Source: Escherichia phage phiWec187
DNA: 64,000 nt
Sequence record: LC739536.1
Direction: 5' to 3' (one strand)
Shown here: positions 23,535-26,377 of the stretch, piece after piece
Layout: every line of letters begins with the position of its first letter
Position numbering within the stretch: the first letter of the stretch is position 1
Made by a program: the position numbers and the translations under genes
The notes under the pieces: model-generated
Told to the model about the DNA's origin: nothing
The model's input: only the letters and a program-made list of their open reading frames with translations
Databases searched by the model: none

Positions 23535-23610
23535 GGTTCCATAGCTCACTGACGAGAGCGCACACCTCATAAGTGTCGAGGGCAGGGATTGTAACCCTGG
23601 GGAACCACCA
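23535..23610 (+). tRNA. tRNA-Met or Ile2 (anticodon CAT)
   Basis: Hand-folded cloverleaf; anticodon loop CTCATAA; encoded CCA. Confidence 0.55.
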
Positions 23611-23641
23611 TTTAAAAGGAGGTGCTATGCATCTCCTATAT

Positions 23642-23727
23642 GCAAGTGTGGTGGAATTGGTGATACACATTGTGCTTAAAACGCAACGCTTAAATGCTTG
23701 AGGGTTCGAATCCCTCCACTTGCACCA
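23642..23727 (+). tRNA. tRNA-Leu (anticodon TAA), long variable arm
   Basis: 7-bp acceptor, loop CTTAAAA, T-loop GGTTCGAATCC, encoded CCA. Confidence 0.6.
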
Positions 23728-23743
23728 AAACCTAAAAATATCT

Positions 23744-23772
23744 TGACATTTACTTAGTTTTTTGTTATAGTT
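23744..23772 (+). promoter_or_regulatory. sigma70-like promoter within tRNA cluster
   Basis: TTGACA-N17-TATAGT, 10 nt before tRNA at 23783. Confidence 0.5.
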
Positions 23773-23782
23773 ACTATGAAAA

Positions 23783-23864
23783 CGGGGTGTATCTCACCTG
23801 ACTTCTAATCAGGCGTTAACCGAGTAATTGGAGTATGCAGGTTCGAATCCTGTCACCCCGGCCA
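23783..23864 (+). tRNA. atypical tRNA-like gene (possible anticodon TCT)
   Basis: Perfect acceptor and canonical T-arm; stem-loop CCTGA-CTTCTAA-TCAGG; D-arm region too short. Confidence 0.4.
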
Positions 23865-23882
23865 AAAAGTTTTAAAAACTAC

Positions 23883-23911
23883 TTGACAAGCAAGATAGTT
23901 TTATGTTAGAT
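23883..23911 (+). promoter_or_regulatory. sigma70-like promoter within tRNA cluster
   Basis: TTGACA-N17-TTAGAT upstream of tRNA-Ser at 23928. Confidence 0.45.
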
Positions 23912-23927
23912 TTAAAGTATGGTAACA

Positions 23928-24017
23928 GGAAGGTAGGGCGCAGCGGTGCGCAACCAGGTTTGAACCCTGGCCCATTGTAGCGATACGGTGATGGTTCGAC
24001 TCCATTATCTTCCTCCA
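23928..24017 (+). tRNA. tRNA-Ser (anticodon TGA)
   Basis: Anticodon loop TTTGAAC, long variable arm, encoded CCA. Confidence 0.6.
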
Positions 24018-24196
24018 AATTCTCTTAGGAGCTTTATGAATTATAAAACTATTGGACAGGTTGTTACCTGAGTTAAGATTGTAAATAATAAAGTTGTTTA
24101 TGAGTATTCTAATCTTCAACAATCCGAAGATGGTAAGAATATTCGTATGGTAAAAACAGAACAAAAAGATTCCGGTTGTTTTGAATAATTAAAAAC

Positions 24197-24282
24197 GGTA
24201 GATTGGTGAAATGGTAGCCACAACAGTTTGCTAAACTGTCGTCGGAAACGGCGTGTAGGTTCAAGTCCTACATCTACCGCCA
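24197..24282 (+). tRNA. tRNA-Ser (anticodon GCT)
   Basis: Anticodon loop TTGCTAA, variable-arm hairpin, T-loop GGTTCAAGTCC, CCA. Confidence 0.6.
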
Positions 24283-24416
24283 AGTTATCTTTAATGTAGC
24301 TTGTAATCTTACTTTAGCAGAGTAAACTTTCGGCAGATGGTGGCAGCCATTTTACCGATACCCCAATACTTCATAGCTAAGTGCCGCAAACACTGGCTAT
24401 TTTAAAGATAATTTAT

Positions 24417-24492
24417 ACATCGTTAGCTTAGTTGGTAGAGCAAGGTGCTTTTAACTCCAAGGTCGAAGGTTCGAATCCTTCACGATGTACCA
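24417..24492 (+). tRNA. tRNA-Lys (anticodon TTT), tentative
   Basis: D-arm GCTTAGTTGGTAGAGC; loop CTTTTAA with one stem mismatch; CCA. Confidence 0.5.
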
Positions 24493-24497
24493 AACAC

Positions 24498-24584
24498 GTA
24501 GGTATCGCATAGCGGCAATTGCTGGAGACTGTAAATCTCCTGCCCTTCGGGGCTTCGTTGGTTCGAGTCCAACTACCTGCACCA
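24498..24584 (+). tRNA. tRNA-Tyr (anticodon GTA)
   Basis: Anticodon arm GGAGA-CTGTAAA-TCTCC; variable-arm hairpin; CCA. Confidence 0.65.
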
Positions 24585-24591
24585 AATTAAA

Positions 24592-24676
24592 GATGGATTG
24601 GCCTAGTGGTTGGGCGACGGACTGTTAATCCGTGAACGAAAGTTCTAGCAAGGTTCAAATCCTTGATCCATCGCCA
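24592..24676 (+). tRNA. tRNA with anticodon GTT (Asn) and unusually long variable arm
   Basis: Anticodon arm ACGGA-CTGTTAA-TCCGT; 15-nt variable hairpin; T-loop GGTTCAAATCC; CCA. Confidence 0.5.
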
Positions 24677-24680
24677 AATA

Positions 24681-24749
24681 GTGCTTGTAGAGTTAATAGA
24701 AACCTCTAGAATTTTCTAGAATTGTAGGTATCAAATCCTACCAAGCAAA
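24681..24749 (+). ncRNA. degenerate tRNA-like element
   Basis: 6-bp acceptor-like pairing and T-arm-like hairpin but anticodon loop of 6 or 8 nt and no CCA. Confidence 0.25.
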
Positions 24750-24755
24750 TATTTT

Positions 24756-24830
24756 GCTCCTATCGTATAACGGCTATTACGGTTGCCTTGTAAGCAACTT
24801 ATCAGGGTTCGAGTCCTTGTGGGAGCACCA
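24756..24830 (+). tRNA. tRNA-Thr (anticodon TGT)
   Basis: Anticodon arm GTTGC-CTTGTAA-GCAAC; T-loop GGGTTCGAGTCC; CCA. Confidence 0.65.
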
Positions 24831-24852
24831 ATTTAACTCTAAAGGAGTGTAT

Positions 24853-25176
24853 GTGACAGAAAAAGAGTTAGAGAAATATTTTAATATCAATGTTTTCGAT
24901 GGCTTTGATGATATTGAAGATGTTGAAAGATATTATGAAGTAGAGTTAGATAAGGATAACATTGTAATTCTTTCTGCCACTTACGATTGTGCATATTATG
25001 AAGGCGAATCTCACGTTTATTTCTATGATATGAAAACATCTTTGTTTTATGAAGTACACGCATATCATTGTTCTTGCTATGGCTTAGAAGGTCAGTGGGA
25101 ACCTGAAGAAATAGGTGATTTGGACTTTACTATTGCATATCTAAACAGACGTGGTTCATCTACTATTTTAAAATAA
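24853..25176 (+). CDS. hypothetical protein inside tRNA cluster (GTG start)
   Basis: Track start 24754 overlaps tRNA-Thr; AAGGAG at 24842-24847 then GTG at 24853. Confidence 0.4.
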   Translation: MTEKELEKYFNINVFDGFDDIEDVERYYEVELDKDNIVILSATYDCAYYEGESHVYFYDMKTSLFYEVHAYHCSCYGLEGQWEPEEIGDLDFTIAYLNRRGSSTILK

Positions 25177-25190
25177 ATATCAAAAGCCTC

Positions 25191-25220
25191 TTGACAAAGG
25201 GGCTAATAATATGTTAGAGT
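25191..25220 (+). promoter_or_regulatory. sigma70-like promoter within tRNA cluster
   Basis: TTGACA-N17/18-TAGAGT upstream of tRNA-Gly at 25232. Confidence 0.45.
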
Positions 25221-25231
25221 AATATTGTTAA

Positions 25232-25306
25232 GCGGGTATAGTGTTAATGGTAGCATATGAGGTTTCCACCCTCCAGGTGCAGGTTCAAGTCCTGTTACTC
25301 GCTCCA
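25232..25306 (+). tRNA. tRNA-Gly (anticodon TCC)
   Basis: Anticodon loop TTTCCAC; T-loop GGTTCAAGTCC; CCA. Confidence 0.6.
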
Positions 25307-25737
25307 AGATTATTTAAATGGAATCGCTAGAGAAAATTTCTCTTTTCGCTCATGGTTTTCTCCTTCAAACTCTAGCGGTTCTTTTTAAGTGATTTTTTAG
25401 TTTATTGGAGATTCACTTCCTTAGTGTGAGCTAAAATCGAGGAGCCATCGAACTGTCTGATTAATGATTTGCGAATCATTATAGTTTTAAGACCCCGGTA
25501 GTTTTATGGTGTACCTCTTGAATGTGAATGATGACGGGTTTATGGTTATCCTGGTCGTTAAATATCCAAAAACCTATGTTCCCCTTGAGGGCTTGCGCAG
25601 GTAATGCCAATAAGTCCTGCATTTTCATTTAAAAGAGAATTTATAATGGAAAAAGATGAACTTAAGTATGCTAAGCCTCTGGCTTCTGCTGCACGAAAAG
25701 CAGTTCGTCACTTTGTGGTAACACTGAAGTAATTTAT

Positions 25738-25812
25738 TGGAGATTAGCCTAGTGGGAAGGCAACGGCCTTTGAAGTCGTGATGACTAGGTTCGATTCCTA
25801 GATCTCCAGCCA
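25738..25812 (+). tRNA. tRNA-Gln (anticodon TTG)
   Basis: Anticodon arm ACGGC-CTTTGAA-GTCGT; T-loop GGTTCGATTCC; CCA. Confidence 0.65.
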
Positions 25813-25819
25813 AGATTTA

Positions 25820-25895
25820 CAGTGCGTAGCGCAGTTGGTAGCGTGGGAGCCTTGGACGCTTCAGGTCGCAGGTTCGAGTCCTGCCGCACTGACCA
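25820..25895 (+). tRNA. tRNA-Pro (anticodon TGG)
   Basis: C1:G72 acceptor; anticodon loop CTTGGAC; CCA. Confidence 0.65.
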
Positions 25896-25900
25896 AATTT

Positions 25901-25975
25901 GCAGAGATAGCTGAGACGGATTAGTGCTACCCTGAAAAGGTAGAAAGGATGGATCGTTACCATCTCTCTGCACCA
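25901..25975 (+). tRNA. tRNA-Phe (anticodon GAA)
   Basis: Anticodon arm CTACC-CTGAAAA-GGTAG; CCA. Confidence 0.65.
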
Positions 25976-26052
25976 AATAACACCATCCAAGGAGTAGACT
26001 TGGTTAACTGTCAATAGCACATTGAGGCTTCTTACAGTGGTGTACTTATTAT

Positions 26053-26137
26053 GGCTAAGTGGTGGAATGGTATACACGATACGCTTAGAACGTATTGCCC
26101 CAAGGGATTGTGAGTTCGAGTCTCACCTTAGCTACCA
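26053..26137 (+). tRNA. tRNA-Leu (anticodon TAG), long variable arm
   Basis: Anticodon arm ATACG-CTTAGAA-CGTAT; T-loop GAGTTCGAGTCTC; CCA. Confidence 0.65.
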
Positions 26138-26152
26138 AATTATTACAGATTG

Positions 26153-26231
26153 TGCGGGATAGAGGAGTCTGGTCGTCCTCGCCAGTTTCATATGCTGGAG
26201 ATCATCGGTTCGAATCCGATTTCCGCCTCCA
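26153..26231 (+). tRNA. tRNA with anticodon CAT (Met or Ile2), mismatched first acceptor pair
   Basis: Anticodon arm CCAGT-TTCATAT-GCTGG; T-loop GGTTCGAATCC; CCA; 1:72 pair U-C. Confidence 0.5.
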
Positions 26232-26289
26232 ATAAATACCTCCCTTCTGGTGTAATGATTAAATTACATTGACACTTCAAGGAACTCAT

Positions 26290-26372
26290 AGCCGGGTAGA
26301 TTTAAAAGAGTATGGTACTCAATATGGCTCCAAACCATAGATCAGGGGGTTCGATTCCTCACCTTGCTGCCA
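26290..26372 (+). tRNA. atypical tRNA-like gene, possible tRNA-Trp (anticodon CCA)
   Basis: Anticodon arm TATGG-CTCCAAA-CCATA; T-loop GGGTTCGATTCC; CCA; D region too long. Confidence 0.35.
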
Positions 26373-26377
26373 ATTAT

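What the first reader, a model, noticed from the sequence alone, without database searches (positions are those of the whole stretch)
23783..26372. Structurally atypical tRNA-like genes inside the cluster
Four elements have good acceptor stems and T-arms but odd bodies. At 23783-23864 the D-arm region is only about 5 nt and the variable region 23 nt. At 24592-24676 an Asn anticodon GTT is combined with a class-II-like 15-nt variable hairpin. At 24681-24749 the anticodon loop is 6 or 8 nt and CCA is absent. At 26290-26372 a Trp anticodon sits behind an over-long D region. These may be decaying pseudo-tRNAs, altered decoders, or decoys; my manual folding could also be wrong.
Basis: seen in the sequence. 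Interest (0 to 1): 0.45.

Follow-up and report, generated by a model that had tools for sequence, protein, structure and literature searches.

The report
Conserved rewired tRNAs in phage cluster
Four odd tRNA-like genes in the tRNA cluster of a phi92-like coliphage are real: three belong to widespread, phage-restricted families of structurally rewired tRNAs that probably still decode (Arg, Asn, Trp), and one is an anticodon-less tRNA look-alike, so they are not decaying pseudogenes.

Summary
The window is a phi92-like coliphage (Justusliebigvirus). All four elements exist as described and none refolds into a canonical cloverleaf.

- **E1 (23783-23864)** is a tRNA-Arg(UCU). Its D-stem 5' strand (CUC) pairs with a GAG that lies 3' of the anticodon arm, followed by a D-loop-like UAANUGGAG. 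There are 49 distinct relatives. Every change in this helix is compensated, and every anticodon in the family is an Arg anticodon. In related phages it occupies the locus of a canonical tRNA-Arg(UCU).
- **E2 (24592-24676)** is a tRNA-Asn(GUU) with an extra 4-bp, GNRA-capped variable hairpin. In 15 distinct relatives, 44 of 45 free stem pairs are Watson-Crick.
- **E4 (26290-26372)** is a tRNA-Trp(CCA) with an 8-bp acceptor stem and a 4-bp T stem. A covarying 3-bp helix encloses a compact D hairpin and the anticodon arm. None of 22 loci carrying it has a canonical tRNA-Trp.
- **E3 (24681-24749)** is a tRNA-shaped RNA with a tetraloop hairpin instead of an anticodon arm, an 8-nt T loop and no CCA. 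It is confined to Stephanstirmvirinae.

E1, E2 and E4 are most likely working decoders with non-canonical cores. The selective reason is inferred (possibly evasion of tRNA-targeting defences). I found no published description.

The parts
23743..23771 (+). Sigma-70-like promoter (TTGACA-17 nt-TATAGT with TG) ending 12 nt before the 5' end of E1
   Evidence: Best promoter-like site of the region, 11 of 12 matches. It is a consensus match only; transcription was not shown.
23783..23864 (+). E1: non-canonical tRNA-Arg(UCU), 82 nt. Acceptor 23783-23789 with 23854-23860, anticodon arm 23797-23813 (anticodon TCT 23804-23806), T arm 23837-23853, discriminator G 23861, CCA 23862-23864
   Evidence: Rfam tRNA 38.6 bits with the D arm deleted. 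Not called by ARAGORN. In a 38-sequence alignment 99.3% of cells are paired, against 33-47% in slid controls.
23793..23795 (+). E1 helix X, 5' strand (CTC, inside the connector TATCTCA that replaces the D arm)
   Evidence: Pairs with GAG at 23822-23824. The pairing is 100% across 38 sequences. The middle pair is UA in 34, AU in 2 and GC in 2, all compensated. A further CGC/GCG case occurs in Streptomyces phage Yaboi.
23822..23836 (+). E1 helix X 3' strand (GAG 23822-23824) followed by the D-loop-like tail TAATTGGAGTAT, with GGA at 23830-23832 (proposed equivalents of G18, G19 and A20)
   Evidence: GGA is present in all V-region variants recovered (the parsing filter favoured it). A20 is the main ArgRS determinant in bacteria (PMC9976931). 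The equivalence is inferred.
24592..24676 (+). E2: tRNA-Asn(GUU) with an otherwise canonical 7/5 cloverleaf (anticodon 24624-24626, G73, CCA encoded) plus an extra variable hairpin
   Evidence: ARAGORN tRNA-Asn. Rfam tRNA 56.5 bits. Annotated as tRNA-Asn in relatives.
24634..24645 (+). E2 variable-arm hairpin GAAC-GAAA-GTTC (4 bp plus a GNRA tetraloop)
   Evidence: In 15 distinct homologues the three free stem pairs are 44/45 Watson-Crick plus 1 G-U, with 11 different stem sequences. Compensatory changes are visible in A6.
24681..24749 (+). E3: anticodon-less tRNA-like element. Acceptor 24682-24687 with 24742-24747, hairpin TCTAGA-ATTT-TCTAGA 24705-24720, T arm 24724-24741 with the 8-nt loop TATCAAAT, no CCA
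   Evidence: No Rfam or ARAGORN hit. MFE -16.9 kcal/mol, z -3.5. A longer homologue occurs in 88 Phapecoctavirus/Justusliebigvirus records, with 3 compensated stem pairs relative to the window copy.
26290..26372 (+). E4: non-canonical tRNA-Trp(CCA), 83 nt. 8-bp acceptor 26290-26297 with 26361-26368, compact D hairpin 26308-26320 (GAGTA-TGG-TACTC), anticodon arm 26323-26339 (anticodon CCA 26330-26332), 4-bp T stem within 26346-26360, G73 at 26369, CCA 26370-26372
   Evidence: In a 16-sequence alignment 91.4% of cells are paired, against 42-48% in slid controls. The 8th acceptor pair is UA 9, AU 3, CG 2, UG 2. The 7/5 alternative fails in 13 of 16 sequences. Covariance model R1 scores it 94 bits.
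26299..26301 (+). E4 helix X, 5' strand (GAT), pairing with ATC at 26341-26343
   Evidence: All three pairs change on both sides across homologues: GAT/ATC, AGT/ACT, GGT/ACC, GTT/AAC, GCT/AGC, GAC/GTC, GCG/CGC. 93.8% of cells are paired.
26341..26343 (+). E4 helix X, 3' strand (ATC), one nucleotide after the anticodon stem
   Evidence: As for the 5' strand.
26566..26584 (+). Intrinsic-terminator-like hairpin plus T run that closes the tRNA cluster

Best explanation
E1, E2 and E4 are most likely functional phage tRNAs that decode their ordinary codons (AGA/AGG, AAC/AAU, UGG) and carry conserved non-canonical cores. E3 is a conserved tRNA-shaped RNA that cannot decode.

**E1 and E4.** Nucleotides at the usual D-stem 5' position (about 10-13) pair with nucleotides that lie 3' of the anticodon arm, not 5' of it. 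The anticodon arm is therefore nested inside this 'D-stem' (helix X).
- In E1 the strand leaving helix X is a D-loop-like UAANUGGAG. It probably supplies the G18/G19 contacts to the T loop and the A20 read by ArgRS.
- In E4 helix X also encloses a compact hairpin with a UGG loop, and the acceptor/T branch is 8/4 instead of 7/5.

**E2.** It is an ordinary tRNA-Asn body with a GNRA-capped hairpin added in the variable region.

**Shown:** the helices, their covariation, restriction to phages, anticodon specificity, and occupation of the Arg(UCU) and Trp slots in the clusters.

**Inferred:** L-shaped folding, charging by the host ArgRS, TrpRS and AsnRS, and use on the ribosome. The selective reason is also only inferred. 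One possibility is that a changed core or an added arm escapes host tRNA-targeting nucleases that read the D loop or anticodon stem, or escapes phage-induced host tRNA turnover, while synthetase recognition is kept.
For: **E1**
- 49 distinct family members were recovered. They come from Stephanstirmvirinae, Ounavirinae, Vequintavirinae, Demerecviridae, a jumbo phage, Streptomyces phages and many IMG/VR contigs.
- The three standard helices are 99.3% paired, with 16 pairs changing on both sides. Helix X is 100% paired, and all variants are compensated: CUC/GAG, CGC/GCG, CAC/GUG.
- All anticodons in this architecture are Arg: UCU, CCU, ACG.
- The acceptor 5' strand and T arm are identical to a canonical T5-like tRNA-Arg(UCU), and the acceptor 3' strand differs at one base.
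- LPML1 carries E1 exactly where its 91-97% identical relative SarahDanielle carries a canonical tRNA-Arg(UCU). Mydo has Leu-E1-Cys where SSE121 has Leu-Arg(UCU)-Cys.
- Only 2 of 46 E1 loci also have a canonical-length Arg(UCU).
- A near-consensus promoter lies directly upstream.
- AGA is the second commonest Arg codon in the window, at 11.4 per 1000 codons.
- The pattern occurs in only 2 MAG contigs among 185,579 species genomes.

**E4**
- 16 or more distinct members, 91.4% paired, helix X 93.8% paired with all pairs covarying, and the 8/4 branch supported.
- A1-U72, G73 and CCA match the E. coli Trp identity elements.
- 0 of 22 E4 loci have a canonical tRNA-Trp, including clusters of 19-32 tRNAs.
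- The covariance model finds only Trp elements above 45 bits.

**E2**
- Called by ARAGORN and Rfam.
- V-stem pairs are 44/45 Watson-Crick across 11 different stem sequences.
- GUU plus G73 is the AsnRS identity set.
- It is the only Asn tRNA in its clusters.

**E3**
- The cloverleaf-like fold has z about -3.5 to -3.7 in both forms.
- Between the two forms, 3 stem pairs are compensated.
Against: - There is no expression, processing, aminoacylation or ribosome data for any element. Function is inferred from conservation and context.
- Helix X of E1 rests on one variable pair (four compensated alignment rows plus Yaboi). Its two C-G pairs are invariant, partly because two of the three search patterns fixed them.
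- Pairs 38-49, 39-48 and 40-47 of a rival V hairpin in E1 are also compatible with the data.
- E4-family members were picked by architecture from a pattern scan that fixed the anticodon loop and T arm. That scan alone therefore cannot show Trp specificity or T-stem conservation.
- In the SSE121/Mydo/Felix O1-like subgroups only 2 of the 3 helix X pairs form.
- The MFE of E4 is no better than shuffled sequence (z +0.24).
- A few phages carry both E1 and a canonical Arg(UCU), so E1 need not be a simple substitute.
- The defence-evasion rationale is untested. E2 keeps the exact U36AAUC|C41 site that AriB cleaves in E. coli tRNA-Asn.
- E3 varies little and is absent from Citrobacter phage Tr1. A slowly decaying remnant is therefore not excluded.
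Confidence: 0.65

Rival explanations
1. Decaying pseudo-tRNAs: duplicated tRNA genes that lost their D arms or anticodon loops and now drift without function.
For: ARAGORN misses E1, E3 and E4, and Rfam misses E3 and E4. RefSeq leaves them unannotated in phi92 and relatives. E3 is present in only part of the genus, has lost the GG of its D loop and its 1-72 pair in the window copy, and is absent from Tr1.
Against: E1, E2 and E4 are conserved across phage subfamilies and dozens of environmental contigs, with 91-99% stem pairing and abundant double-sided compensatory changes. The atypical parts themselves (connector, V region, helix X) are the most conserved or covarying parts. E1 replaces a canonical gene at the same locus. 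Even E3 shows 3 compensated pairs against 1 disrupted pair.
Confidence: 0.05
2. Non-decoding tRNA mimics. The elements would be decoys or sponges for host tRNA-binding factors (anticodon nucleases, modification enzymes, toxins), or processing/punctuation signals for RNase P and RNase Z in the polycistronic transcript, and would not be used on the ribosome.
For: E3 has no anticodon loop yet keeps acceptor and T stems by compensatory change. It sits between tRNA-Asn and tRNA-Thr in a Lys-Tyr-Asn-Thr block whose host counterparts are known defence targets (PMC12409363). Some phages carry E1 in addition to a canonical Arg(UCU).
Against: E1 and E4 keep perfect 7-nt anticodon loops with U33 and a purine at 37, family-specific anticodons, cognate discriminator bases and encoded CCA. 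They are usually the only tRNA with that anticodon in otherwise near-complete clusters. The hairpin sequence of E3 is not conserved between its two forms, which argues against mimicry of a specific anticodon loop.
Confidence: 0.2
3. Recoding or mis-decoding tRNAs. The altered bodies would change what is inserted or read. For example, E4 could read UGA as Trp (as D-arm mutants of tRNA-Trp do), or E2 could be charged with Ser, Leu or Tyr through its long variable arm.
For: The D-arm mutation G24A of E. coli tRNA-Trp (the Hirsh suppressor; my own knowledge, not tested here) allows UGA reading, and E4 has a radically altered D region. E2 has a class-II-like arm and G73, which is also the Ser discriminator (Table 3 of PMC9976931). 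TGA is the stop of only 9 of 66 long ORFs in the window.
Against: TGA is still used as a stop, and no in-frame TGA pattern was seen. E4 has a normal 5-bp anticodon stem. The V stem of E2 is only 4 bp, and the rest of E2 (4-bp D stem, an anticodon arm matching E. coli tRNA-Asn [my recollection of that sequence], GUU plus G73) matches Asn identity. The architecture is tied to single amino-acid specificities rather than to stop or mixed anticodons.
Confidence: 0.08
4. Folding artefact: with other boundaries the elements are ordinary cloverleaves.
For: Manual folding is error-prone. One database record reads an E1-type gene as 'tRNA-Val(aac)'.
Against: ARAGORN and Rfam find no canonical solution. 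The 7/5 alternative for E4 fails in 13 of 16 sequences. The Val reading of the Yaboi gene ignores a perfect CUUCUAA loop on a 5-bp stem that is conserved family-wide.
Confidence: 0.02

Closest known systems
(8/4) tRNAs and allo-tRNAs (Mukai et al. 2017, PMC5389517)
   Same: E4 has the defining 12-bp acceptor branch split 8/4 and a compact D hairpin (5-bp stem, 3-nt loop). That paper reports (8/4) tRNA-Ser and tRNA-His in bacteriophage tRNA clusters. The window's own tRNA-Ser(UGA) at 23928-24017 is of that type.
   Different: E4 has a Trp anticodon, which the paper's main text does not mention. It has no long variable arm. It has a 10-nt connector after the acceptor stem and an extra covarying helix between that connector and the variable region. 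The abstract and passages of that paper that I read describe neither.
D-arm-lacking mitochondrial tRNAs (metazoan and nematode mt-tRNAs; reviewed in PMC7609411)
   Same: E1 has only 7 nt between the acceptor and anticodon stems, with no D hairpin.
   Different: The mitochondrial forms are shrunken molecules (my own knowledge; not checked here). E1 is full length (82 nt). It re-creates a D-stem-like helix with its 23-nt variable region, keeps a GG(A) motif and a canonical T loop, and occurs in phages of bacteria. The review does not mention phages.
Class II (long variable arm) tRNAs: bacterial Leu, Ser, Tyr, Sec
   Same: E2 has a base-paired variable arm (4 bp plus tetraloop) between the anticodon and T arms.
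   Different: The anticodon and discriminator are those of Asn, a class I-type tRNA. The D stem is 4 bp, whereas bacterial class II tRNAs have, to my knowledge, a 3-bp D stem. The arm is short and GNRA-capped.
tRNA-Sec (Rfam RF01852)
   Same: This is the only Rfam model that touches E4 (22.4 bits). It shares an 8-bp acceptor stem and a compact D arm with E4.
   Different: The score is far below the gathering score of 47. The anticodon is CCA, not UCA. There is no long variable arm, and the T stem is 4 bp rather than the 5 bp that bacterial tRNA-Sec has, to my knowledge.
Defence-resistant phage tRNAs (T5 tRNA-Lys/Thr/Asn versus PARIS AriB; PMC12409363)
   Same: These are phage-encoded copies of tRNAs whose host versions are cleaved by immune nucleases. 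The window carries Lys(UUU), Asn(GUU) and Thr(UGU) side by side.
   Different: The known escape is by point substitutions at positions 39/41 and in the D loop. Here the proposal is escape through changed architecture (an added V arm, a rewired D region), and it is untested. E2 retains the AriB cleavage-site sequence.
Stable tRNA-like RNAs in phage tRNA clusters (T4 species 1 and 2 RNAs, rnaC/rnaD; my own knowledge, not checked here)
   Same: E3 is a small structured RNA gene lying among tRNA genes. It has tRNA-like acceptor and T stems but no decoding capacity.
   Different: No sequence relation was tested. E3 is tRNA-sized (about 69-78 nt) and confined to Stephanstirmvirinae.

Membership tests
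tRNA (Rfam RF00005) | Covariance-model score at or above the gathering score of 29 bits | tested here: inconclusive
   E1 scores 38.6 bits (met, but only with the D arm treated as a deletion). E2 scores 56.5 bits (met). E3 has no match at E<=10. E4 has no tRNA match. Two elements pass and two fail.
Canonical cloverleaf tRNA | D hairpin placed 2 nt after a 7-bp acceptor stem and closed 5' of the anticodon arm | tested here: not met
   E1 has no D hairpin; CUC pairs with a GAG 3' of the anticodon arm. E4 has an 8-bp acceptor, a 10-nt connector and helix X spanning the anticodon arm. E2 meets this feature. E3 has at most a 3-bp D stem.
Canonical cloverleaf tRNA | 7-nt anticodon loop with U33 and a purine at 37 on a 5-bp stem | tested here: met
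   E1 has CUUCUAA, E2 has CUGUUAA and E4 has CUCCAAA, each on a covarying 5-bp stem. E3 does not meet it, because it has a tetraloop.
Functional tRNA-Arg (bacterial ArgRS identity) | C35, U/G36, A/G73 and A20 in the D loop (PMC9976931) | tested here: inconclusive
   C35, U36 and G73 (A73 in some relatives) are present. A candidate A20 follows GG in UGGAG (23830-23832), but its spatial equivalence to A20 cannot be tested with these tools.
Functional tRNA-Trp (E. coli TrpRS identity) | CCA anticodon, G73, A1-U72 (PMC9976931) | tested here: met
   E4 has A1-U72, G73 and CCA. Charging was not tested.
Functional tRNA-Asn (AsnRS identity) | GUU anticodon and G73 (PMC9976931) | tested here: met
   E2 has GUU and G73. 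Its anticodon arm CGGACUGUUAAUCCG matches my recollection of E. coli tRNA-Asn, and its U36AAUCC matches the E. coli tRNA-Asn site quoted. The effect of the V arm on AsnRS was not tested.
(8/4) tRNAs (Mukai 2017) | 8-bp acceptor stem plus 4-bp T stem (12-bp branch) | tested here: met
   In E4 the pair 8-73 forms in 16/16 sequences with 4 pair types. The alternative fifth T-stem pair fails in 13/16.
allo-tRNA (Mukai 2017) | Long variable arm and serine identity | tested here: not met
   E4 has a 6-nt variable region, part of which forms helix X, and there is no V hairpin.
tRNA-Sec (RF01852) | Gathering score of 47 bits; UCA anticodon | tested here: not met
   E4 scores 22.4 bits at E=0.33, and its anticodon is CCA.
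Class II tRNA | Base-paired long variable arm | tested here: met
   The V stem of E2 covaries, with 44/45 Watson-Crick pairs across 11 stem sequences.
Class II tRNA | Leu, Ser, Tyr or Sec specificity in bacteria | tested here: not met
   E2 and all 15 relatives carry the Asn anticodon GUU. The search pattern fixed it, but ARAGORN and database annotations agree.
Expressed, aminoacylated tRNA | Stable mature transcript carrying an amino acid | not testable with these tools
   Only indirect support is available: a promoter-like site upstream of E1 and a terminator after the cluster.

The most novel reading that the evidence does not exclude
E1 and E4 may represent a previously undescribed tRNA architecture that has arisen at least twice in phages. 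In it the D-stem is closed across the anticodon arm (the anticodon arm is nested in the D-stem), yet the RNA would still fold into an L shape, be charged by the host ArgRS or TrpRS, and work on the ribosome. The rewiring, and the extra arm of E2, would be maintained because it makes the phage tRNAs invisible to host tRNA-targeting immune nucleases, or to phage-directed host tRNA destruction, which read the D loop or the anticodon-stem face.
Probability: 0.3. Interest if true: 0.85.

Novelty: new variant of a known kind. Interest (0 to 1): 0.7.

Why it matters
[quoted passage not shown] A widespread, phage-restricted tRNA-Arg family with no D hairpin, and a tRNA-Trp family with an 8/4 branch and an extra helix, would be natural counter-examples that have to work with bacterial synthetases, EF-Tu and ribosomes.

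Three practical consequences follow.
- **Annotation.** Phage annotation pipelines miss or mislabel these genes. E1 and E4 are unannotated in phi92 and most relatives, and an E1-type gene is labelled 'tRNA-Val(aac)' in Streptomyces phage Yaboi. Phage tRNA repertoires and codon-usage analyses are therefore systematically incomplete for Arg(UCU) and Trp.
- **Identity rules.** The elements give ready-made natural tests of what ArgRS (A20) and TrpRS need from the tRNA core.
- **Defence and engineering.** They are candidates for structure-based escape from tRNA-targeting defence systems, and possible scaffolds for orthogonal tRNA engineering.

Tried and rejected
1. **Canonical refolding.** ARAGORN and Rfam (gathering and E<=10) gave no canonical solution for E1, E3 or E4.
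2. **E1 variable region as a self-contained hairpin (the MFE prediction CCGA-GUAA-UUGG).** It is 86% paired, its pair 41-46 fails in 19 of 38 sequences, and the four sequences that vary at position 41 are compensated in helix X instead. I kept it only as a possible partial or tertiary contact for 38-49 and 39-48.
3. **A 7/5 reading of E4.** Rejected.
4. **E4 as tRNA-Sec or allo-tRNA.** Rejected on score, anticodon and the lack of a V arm.
5. **E4 as a UGA suppressor.** Stop-codon usage gives no support: TGA ends 9 of 66 long ORFs. The idea is left as a minor rival.
6. **More distant E3 homologues.** A blastn 'distant' search of phage records and an IMG/VR pattern scan found only Stephanstirmvirinae copies in two forms. 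Covariation statistics for E3 are therefore weak.
7. **E1-type genes in cellular genomes.** Only two MAG contigs were found among 185,579 species.
8. **Literature.** Six completed full-text searches, including literal sequence strings, found no description of these families. One search call failed on a short term.
9. **Other anticodons in the E1 architecture.** A scan with the anticodon left free returned only Arg anticodons. The apparent exception, Yaboi 'tRNA-Val', is a mis-annotated Arg(UCU).
10. **Other anticodons in the E4 architecture.** A search with covariance model R1 (built) over 98 sources found only Trp above 45 bits. The model was trained on Trp sequences, so this test is biased.

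Full report
**Origin and context.** The window is 98.6% identical over the tRNA region to Escherichia phage phi92 (Justusliebigvirus, Stephanstirmvirinae). The finding lies in a plus-strand tRNA cluster at about 23535-26453. ARAGORN tRNAs there. The cluster ends at an intrinsic-terminator-like hairpin at 26566-26584. The RefSeq annotation of phi92 and that of phage Paula list E2 as tRNA-Asn and leave the positions of E1, E3 and E4 empty. Among hundreds of related records, E1 is almost never annotated; one record calls it 'tRNA-OTHER'.

**Check of the observation.** All four elements are there, and none refolds into a standard cloverleaf.
- ARAGORN finds only E2.
- Rfam's tRNA model reaches E1 (38.6 bits) only by treating the D arm as a deletion, with 15 model positions against 4 nt.
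- The same model reaches E2 (56.5 bits) with an insertion in the variable region.
- At E<=10 it reports nothing for E3. For E4 it reports only a tRNA-Sec match at 22.4 bits, below the gathering score of 47.
- For E3, the predicted arm is a 6-bp palindromic stem with a 4-nt loop, and the oversized loop is the 8-nt T loop.

**E1 (23783-23864), the structure.** The sequence reads:
- CGGGGUG (acceptor)
- UAUCUCA (connector)
- CCUGA-CUUCUAA-UCAGG (anticodon arm, anticodon UCU)
- CGUUAACCGAGUAAUUGGAGUAU (variable region)
- GCAGG-UUCGAAU-CCUGU (T arm)
- CACCCCG-G-CCA

Full-length homologues at 82-88% identity occur in Felix O1-like phages, Klebsiella phage Sugarland (Demerecviridae), Proteus phage Mydo (Vequintavirinae) and a 368-kb jumbo phage. 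They always lie inside tRNA clusters. Three IMG/VR pattern scans, which fixed different parts of the element, brought the family to 49 distinct sequences.

On a gap-free alignment of 38 of them, the acceptor, anticodon and T helices plus helix X are 99.3% paired, against 33-47% when the partners are slid. Sixteen pairs change on both sides.

The connector and variable region, which make the element atypical, are its most conserved parts. The few sequences that vary there are informative. Connector C-U-C with variable-region G-A-G becomes CGC with GCG (L276, L284) or CAC with GUG (L279, L292). It is the first GAG, in CGAGUAA, that covaries. Streptomyces phage Yaboi adds another CGC/GCG case.

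The 5' strand of the D stem is therefore still at its usual place. Its partner lies 3' of the anticodon arm, so the anticodon arm is nested inside this helix, which I call helix X.

The hairpin that RNAfold draws inside the variable region is less well supported. It is 86% paired, and one pair fails in half of the sequences.

After helix X comes UAANUGGAG. It resembles a D loop, with GG followed by A. A20 is the main ArgRS determinant in bacteria (PMC9976931). Equating this A with A20 is an inference.

**E1, evidence that it is the phage's tRNA-Arg(UCU).**
- Every anticodon found in this architecture is an arginine anticodon: UCU in 46 sequences, CCU in one, and ACG in two with related variable regions. 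This holds although one scan left the anticodon free.
- Its acceptor 5' strand and T arm are identical to those of a canonical T5-like tRNA-Arg(UCU), and the acceptor 3' strand differs at one base. It is therefore a derivative of such a gene.
- Hafnia phage SarahDanielle and phage LPML1 are 97% and 91% identical on the two flanks. Between those flanks one has a canonical tRNA-Arg(UCU) and the other has E1.
- SSE121 has Leu(UAA)-Arg(UCU)-Cys where Mydo has Leu(UAA)-E1-Cys.
- Of 46 loci with E1, only two also have a canonical-length Arg(UCU). Clusters of 15-28 tRNAs carry canonical Arg(ACG/UCG/CCU) but leave the UCU slot to E1.
- The best sigma-70-like promoter of the region (TTGACA-17-TATAGT with TG) ends 12 nt before E1.
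- AGA is the second commonest Arg codon in the window's long ORFs, at 11.4 per 1000 codons.
- The family is essentially phage-restricted. The pattern occurs in two MAG contigs among 185,579 species genomes.

**E4 (26290-26372).** Homologues occur in Klebsiella and Citrobacter Stephanstirmvirinae, Hafnia/'Listeria' Ounavirinae, Vequintavirinae (SSE121, Mydo), Felix O1-like phages and environmental contigs. Across 16 distinct sequences the structure that fits has these parts, in order:
- an 8-bp acceptor stem
- A9
- helix X 5' strand (GAU)
- a U/A-rich linker
- a compact hairpin (GAGUA-UGG-UACUC)
- the anticodon arm (CUCCAAA loop)
- one nucleotide
- helix X 3' strand (AUC)
- two nucleotides
- a 4-bp T stem
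- G73-CCA

Overall 91.4% of cells are paired, against 42-48% in slid controls. The eighth acceptor pair is U-A, A-U, C-G or U-G, and is never unpaired. Helix X is 93.8% paired, and all three of its pairs change on both sides: GAU/AUC, AGU/ACU, GGU/ACC, GUU/AAC, GCU/AGC, GAC/GUC, GCG/CGC. The 7/5 alternative fails in 13 of 16 sequences. In the SSE121/Mydo and Felix O1-like subgroups only two of the three helix X pairs form.

E4 has A1-U72, G73 and CCA, the E. coli Trp identity set. None of 22 loci with an E4-type gene has a canonical tRNA-Trp, including clusters of 19-32 tRNAs. A covariance model of E4 scores only Trp(CCA) elements above 45 bits in 0.85 Mb of phage tRNA-cluster DNA.

There are three caveats. 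Members were chosen by architecture from a scan that fixed the anticodon loop and the T arm. The model was trained on Trp sequences. And the MFE of E4 is unremarkable (z +0.24), so the support is comparative, not thermodynamic.

**E2 (24592-24676).** This is a normal tRNA-Asn body: a 4-bp D stem, an anticodon arm that matches my recollection of E. coli tRNA-Asn, G73 and an encoded CCA. It carries an added hairpin G-AAC-GAAA-GUU-C in the variable region. The same design is found in Justusliebigvirus, Phapecoctavirus, KP13-26, Tr1, SSE121, Providencia phages and environmental contigs. In 15 distinct sequences, the three stem pairs that the search pattern left free are Watson-Crick in 44 of 45 cells and G-U in the other, with 11 different stem sequences. 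It is the only Asn tRNA in its clusters. It is already annotated as tRNA-Asn. What is new is that a class-II-like arm on an Asn tRNA is a conserved phage feature.

**E3 (24681-24749).** The window form occurs in 38 records. A longer form, with the hairpin CCAG-UC-GCC-AAGA-GGC-UU-CUGG, occurs in 88 Phapecoctavirus/Justusliebigvirus records at 94-100% identity, and is never annotated as a gene. Both forms fold as acceptor stem, weak D region, long tetraloop hairpin and a T arm with an 8-nt loop UAUCRAAU. The folding z-scores are -3.5 and -3.7. Between the two forms, three stem pairs are compensated (2-71, 3-70 and one T-stem pair), one terminal pair is lost in the window copy, and the hairpin sequence is entirely different but still a hairpin. 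No CCA is encoded. No homologue was found outside Stephanstirmvirinae, and Tr1 lacks it. It cannot decode. A structured, possibly processed tRNA-like RNA is the best guess, and a slowly decaying remnant is not excluded.

**How it most likely works.** E1, E2 and E4 are best explained as working decoders. The shared principle of E1 and E4 is that the anticodon stem is joined by a single nucleotide to helix X, on the 5' side in E1 and on the 3' side in E4. The two helices could therefore stack like the D and anticodon stems of a normal tRNA. A GG-containing element could reach the T loop: the tail after helix X in E1, and the UGG loop of the compact hairpin in E4. These spatial statements are inferences.

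Why phages keep such cores is not shown. The PARIS nuclease AriB cleaves E. coli tRNA-Lys(UUU), Thr(UGU) and Asn(GUU) at U36AAUC|N41, and also reads the D loop (PMC12409363). The window carries Lys, Tyr, Asn(E2), E3 and Thr side by side. Its Lys and Thr have substitutions at position 39. E2 keeps the E. coli site but adds an arm three nucleotides (positions 41-43) 3' of the scissile bond. Escape from tRNA-targeting defences by changed architecture is therefore a reasonable hypothesis, but it is untested.

**Comparison with what is known.** E4 meets the 8/4 definition of Mukai et al. (PMC5389517). It is not an allo-tRNA or tRNA-Sec, and its specificity (Trp) is not mentioned in that paper's main text. 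Its helix X is not described in the abstract or passages I read. The cluster also contains an 8/4 tRNA-Ser(UGA), which is of their phage type. E1 resembles D-armless mitochondrial tRNAs only in lacking a D hairpin. E2 resembles class II tRNAs only in having a paired variable arm. A review of non-canonical natural tRNAs does not mention phages. Full-text searches, including literal sequence strings, found no description of these families. The library searched is incomplete, so prior description elsewhere cannot be excluded.

**Verdict.** The 'decay' reading is rejected for three of the four elements. I rate the finding a new variant of a known kind (tRNA), with interest 0.7.

Noticed in passing
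window 23928-24017: The tRNA-Ser(UGA) is itself non-canonical. It has an 8-bp acceptor stem (GGAAGGTA/TATCTTCC), a 4-bp T stem (ATGG/CCAT) and a compact D arm. Rfam's best match is tRNA-Sec at 35.3 bits, and the tRNA model does not reach threshold. Relatives (KP13-26, AYO145A, SSE121) keep the 8/4 split with compensatory changes. This matches the phage (8/4) tRNA-Ser of Mukai 2017. RefSeq flags it as a pseudogene in phi92.
   Followed up: partly
window 23535-23610: The tRNA-Met(CAU) called by ARAGORN does not reach the Rfam tRNA threshold. Its T loop is ATTGTAA instead of TTCRANY. phi92 annotates it as 'hypothetical tRNA'.
   Followed up: no
window 26153-26231: A 79-nt tRNA(CAU) has an enlarged D arm (GAGGA-GTCTGGTCG-TCCTC) and an apparent U1-C72 mismatch. 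tRNA(CAU) genes of the same length (78-79 nt) occur in Paula, UP17, KP13-26 and E9.1. It could be an elongator Met or a lysidine-type Ile tRNA.
   Followed up: no
window 24417-24830: Lys(UUU), Tyr(GUA), Asn(GUU)=E2, E3 and Thr(UGU) lie side by side. Lys, Thr and Asn are the E. coli tRNAs cleaved by PARIS AriB (PMC12409363). The phage Lys (U36AACUC) and Thr (U36AAGCA) differ at position 39 from the cleaved site U36AAUCA. E2 keeps U36AAUCC.
   Followed up: partly
window ~25400-25737: About 340 bp, including a 42-codon ORF annotated as rIII lysis-inhibition accessory protein, is 92-98% identical to the rIII region of hundreds of T4-like phages. This stretch is not covered by the match in many Justusliebigvirus genomes. 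It looks like a recent horizontal transfer into the tRNA cluster. One T4-like record annotates an 'ori type 2 repeat' there.
   Followed up: partly
L312 (Streptomyces phage Yaboi NC_048730.1 86686-86764): The gene annotated tRNA-Val(aac) is an E1-type tRNA-Arg(UCU). The annotation took GTTAACA of the variable region for the anticodon loop. Eight Streptomyces phage records matched E1, so the mislabel may be repeated.
   Followed up: partly
IMG/VR loci (e.g. L199, L221, L136, L144, L145, L178; L088:3383-3453): 46 of 111 distinct Trp(CCA)-like genes recovered by one pattern are not called as tRNA-Trp by ARAGORN. Besides the E4 type there is at least one other recurrent odd form (GCGTTCC-ACAGACAAGGTGTCGG..., with a compact D hairpin with an AGG loop, U-U mismatches in the acceptor stem and no encoded CCA). 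There is also a 71-nt form in a Felix O1-like contig. Phage tRNA-Trp genes seem unusually prone to non-canonical D regions.
   Followed up: no
L012:3604-3694 (phage UP17): A 91-nt class-II tRNA-like sequence with a UGA (Ser) anticodon loop lies in a gap of the annotated Phapecoctavirus cluster. Neither the record nor ARAGORN calls it.
   Followed up: no
window 24283-24416 and 26454-26565: Two spacers of 134 and 112 nt inside the cluster contain hairpins and T-arm-like motifs (e.g. GGAGGGGTGCGACTCC) but match no RNA family at E<=10. They could be tRNA remnants or processing signals.
   Followed up: no
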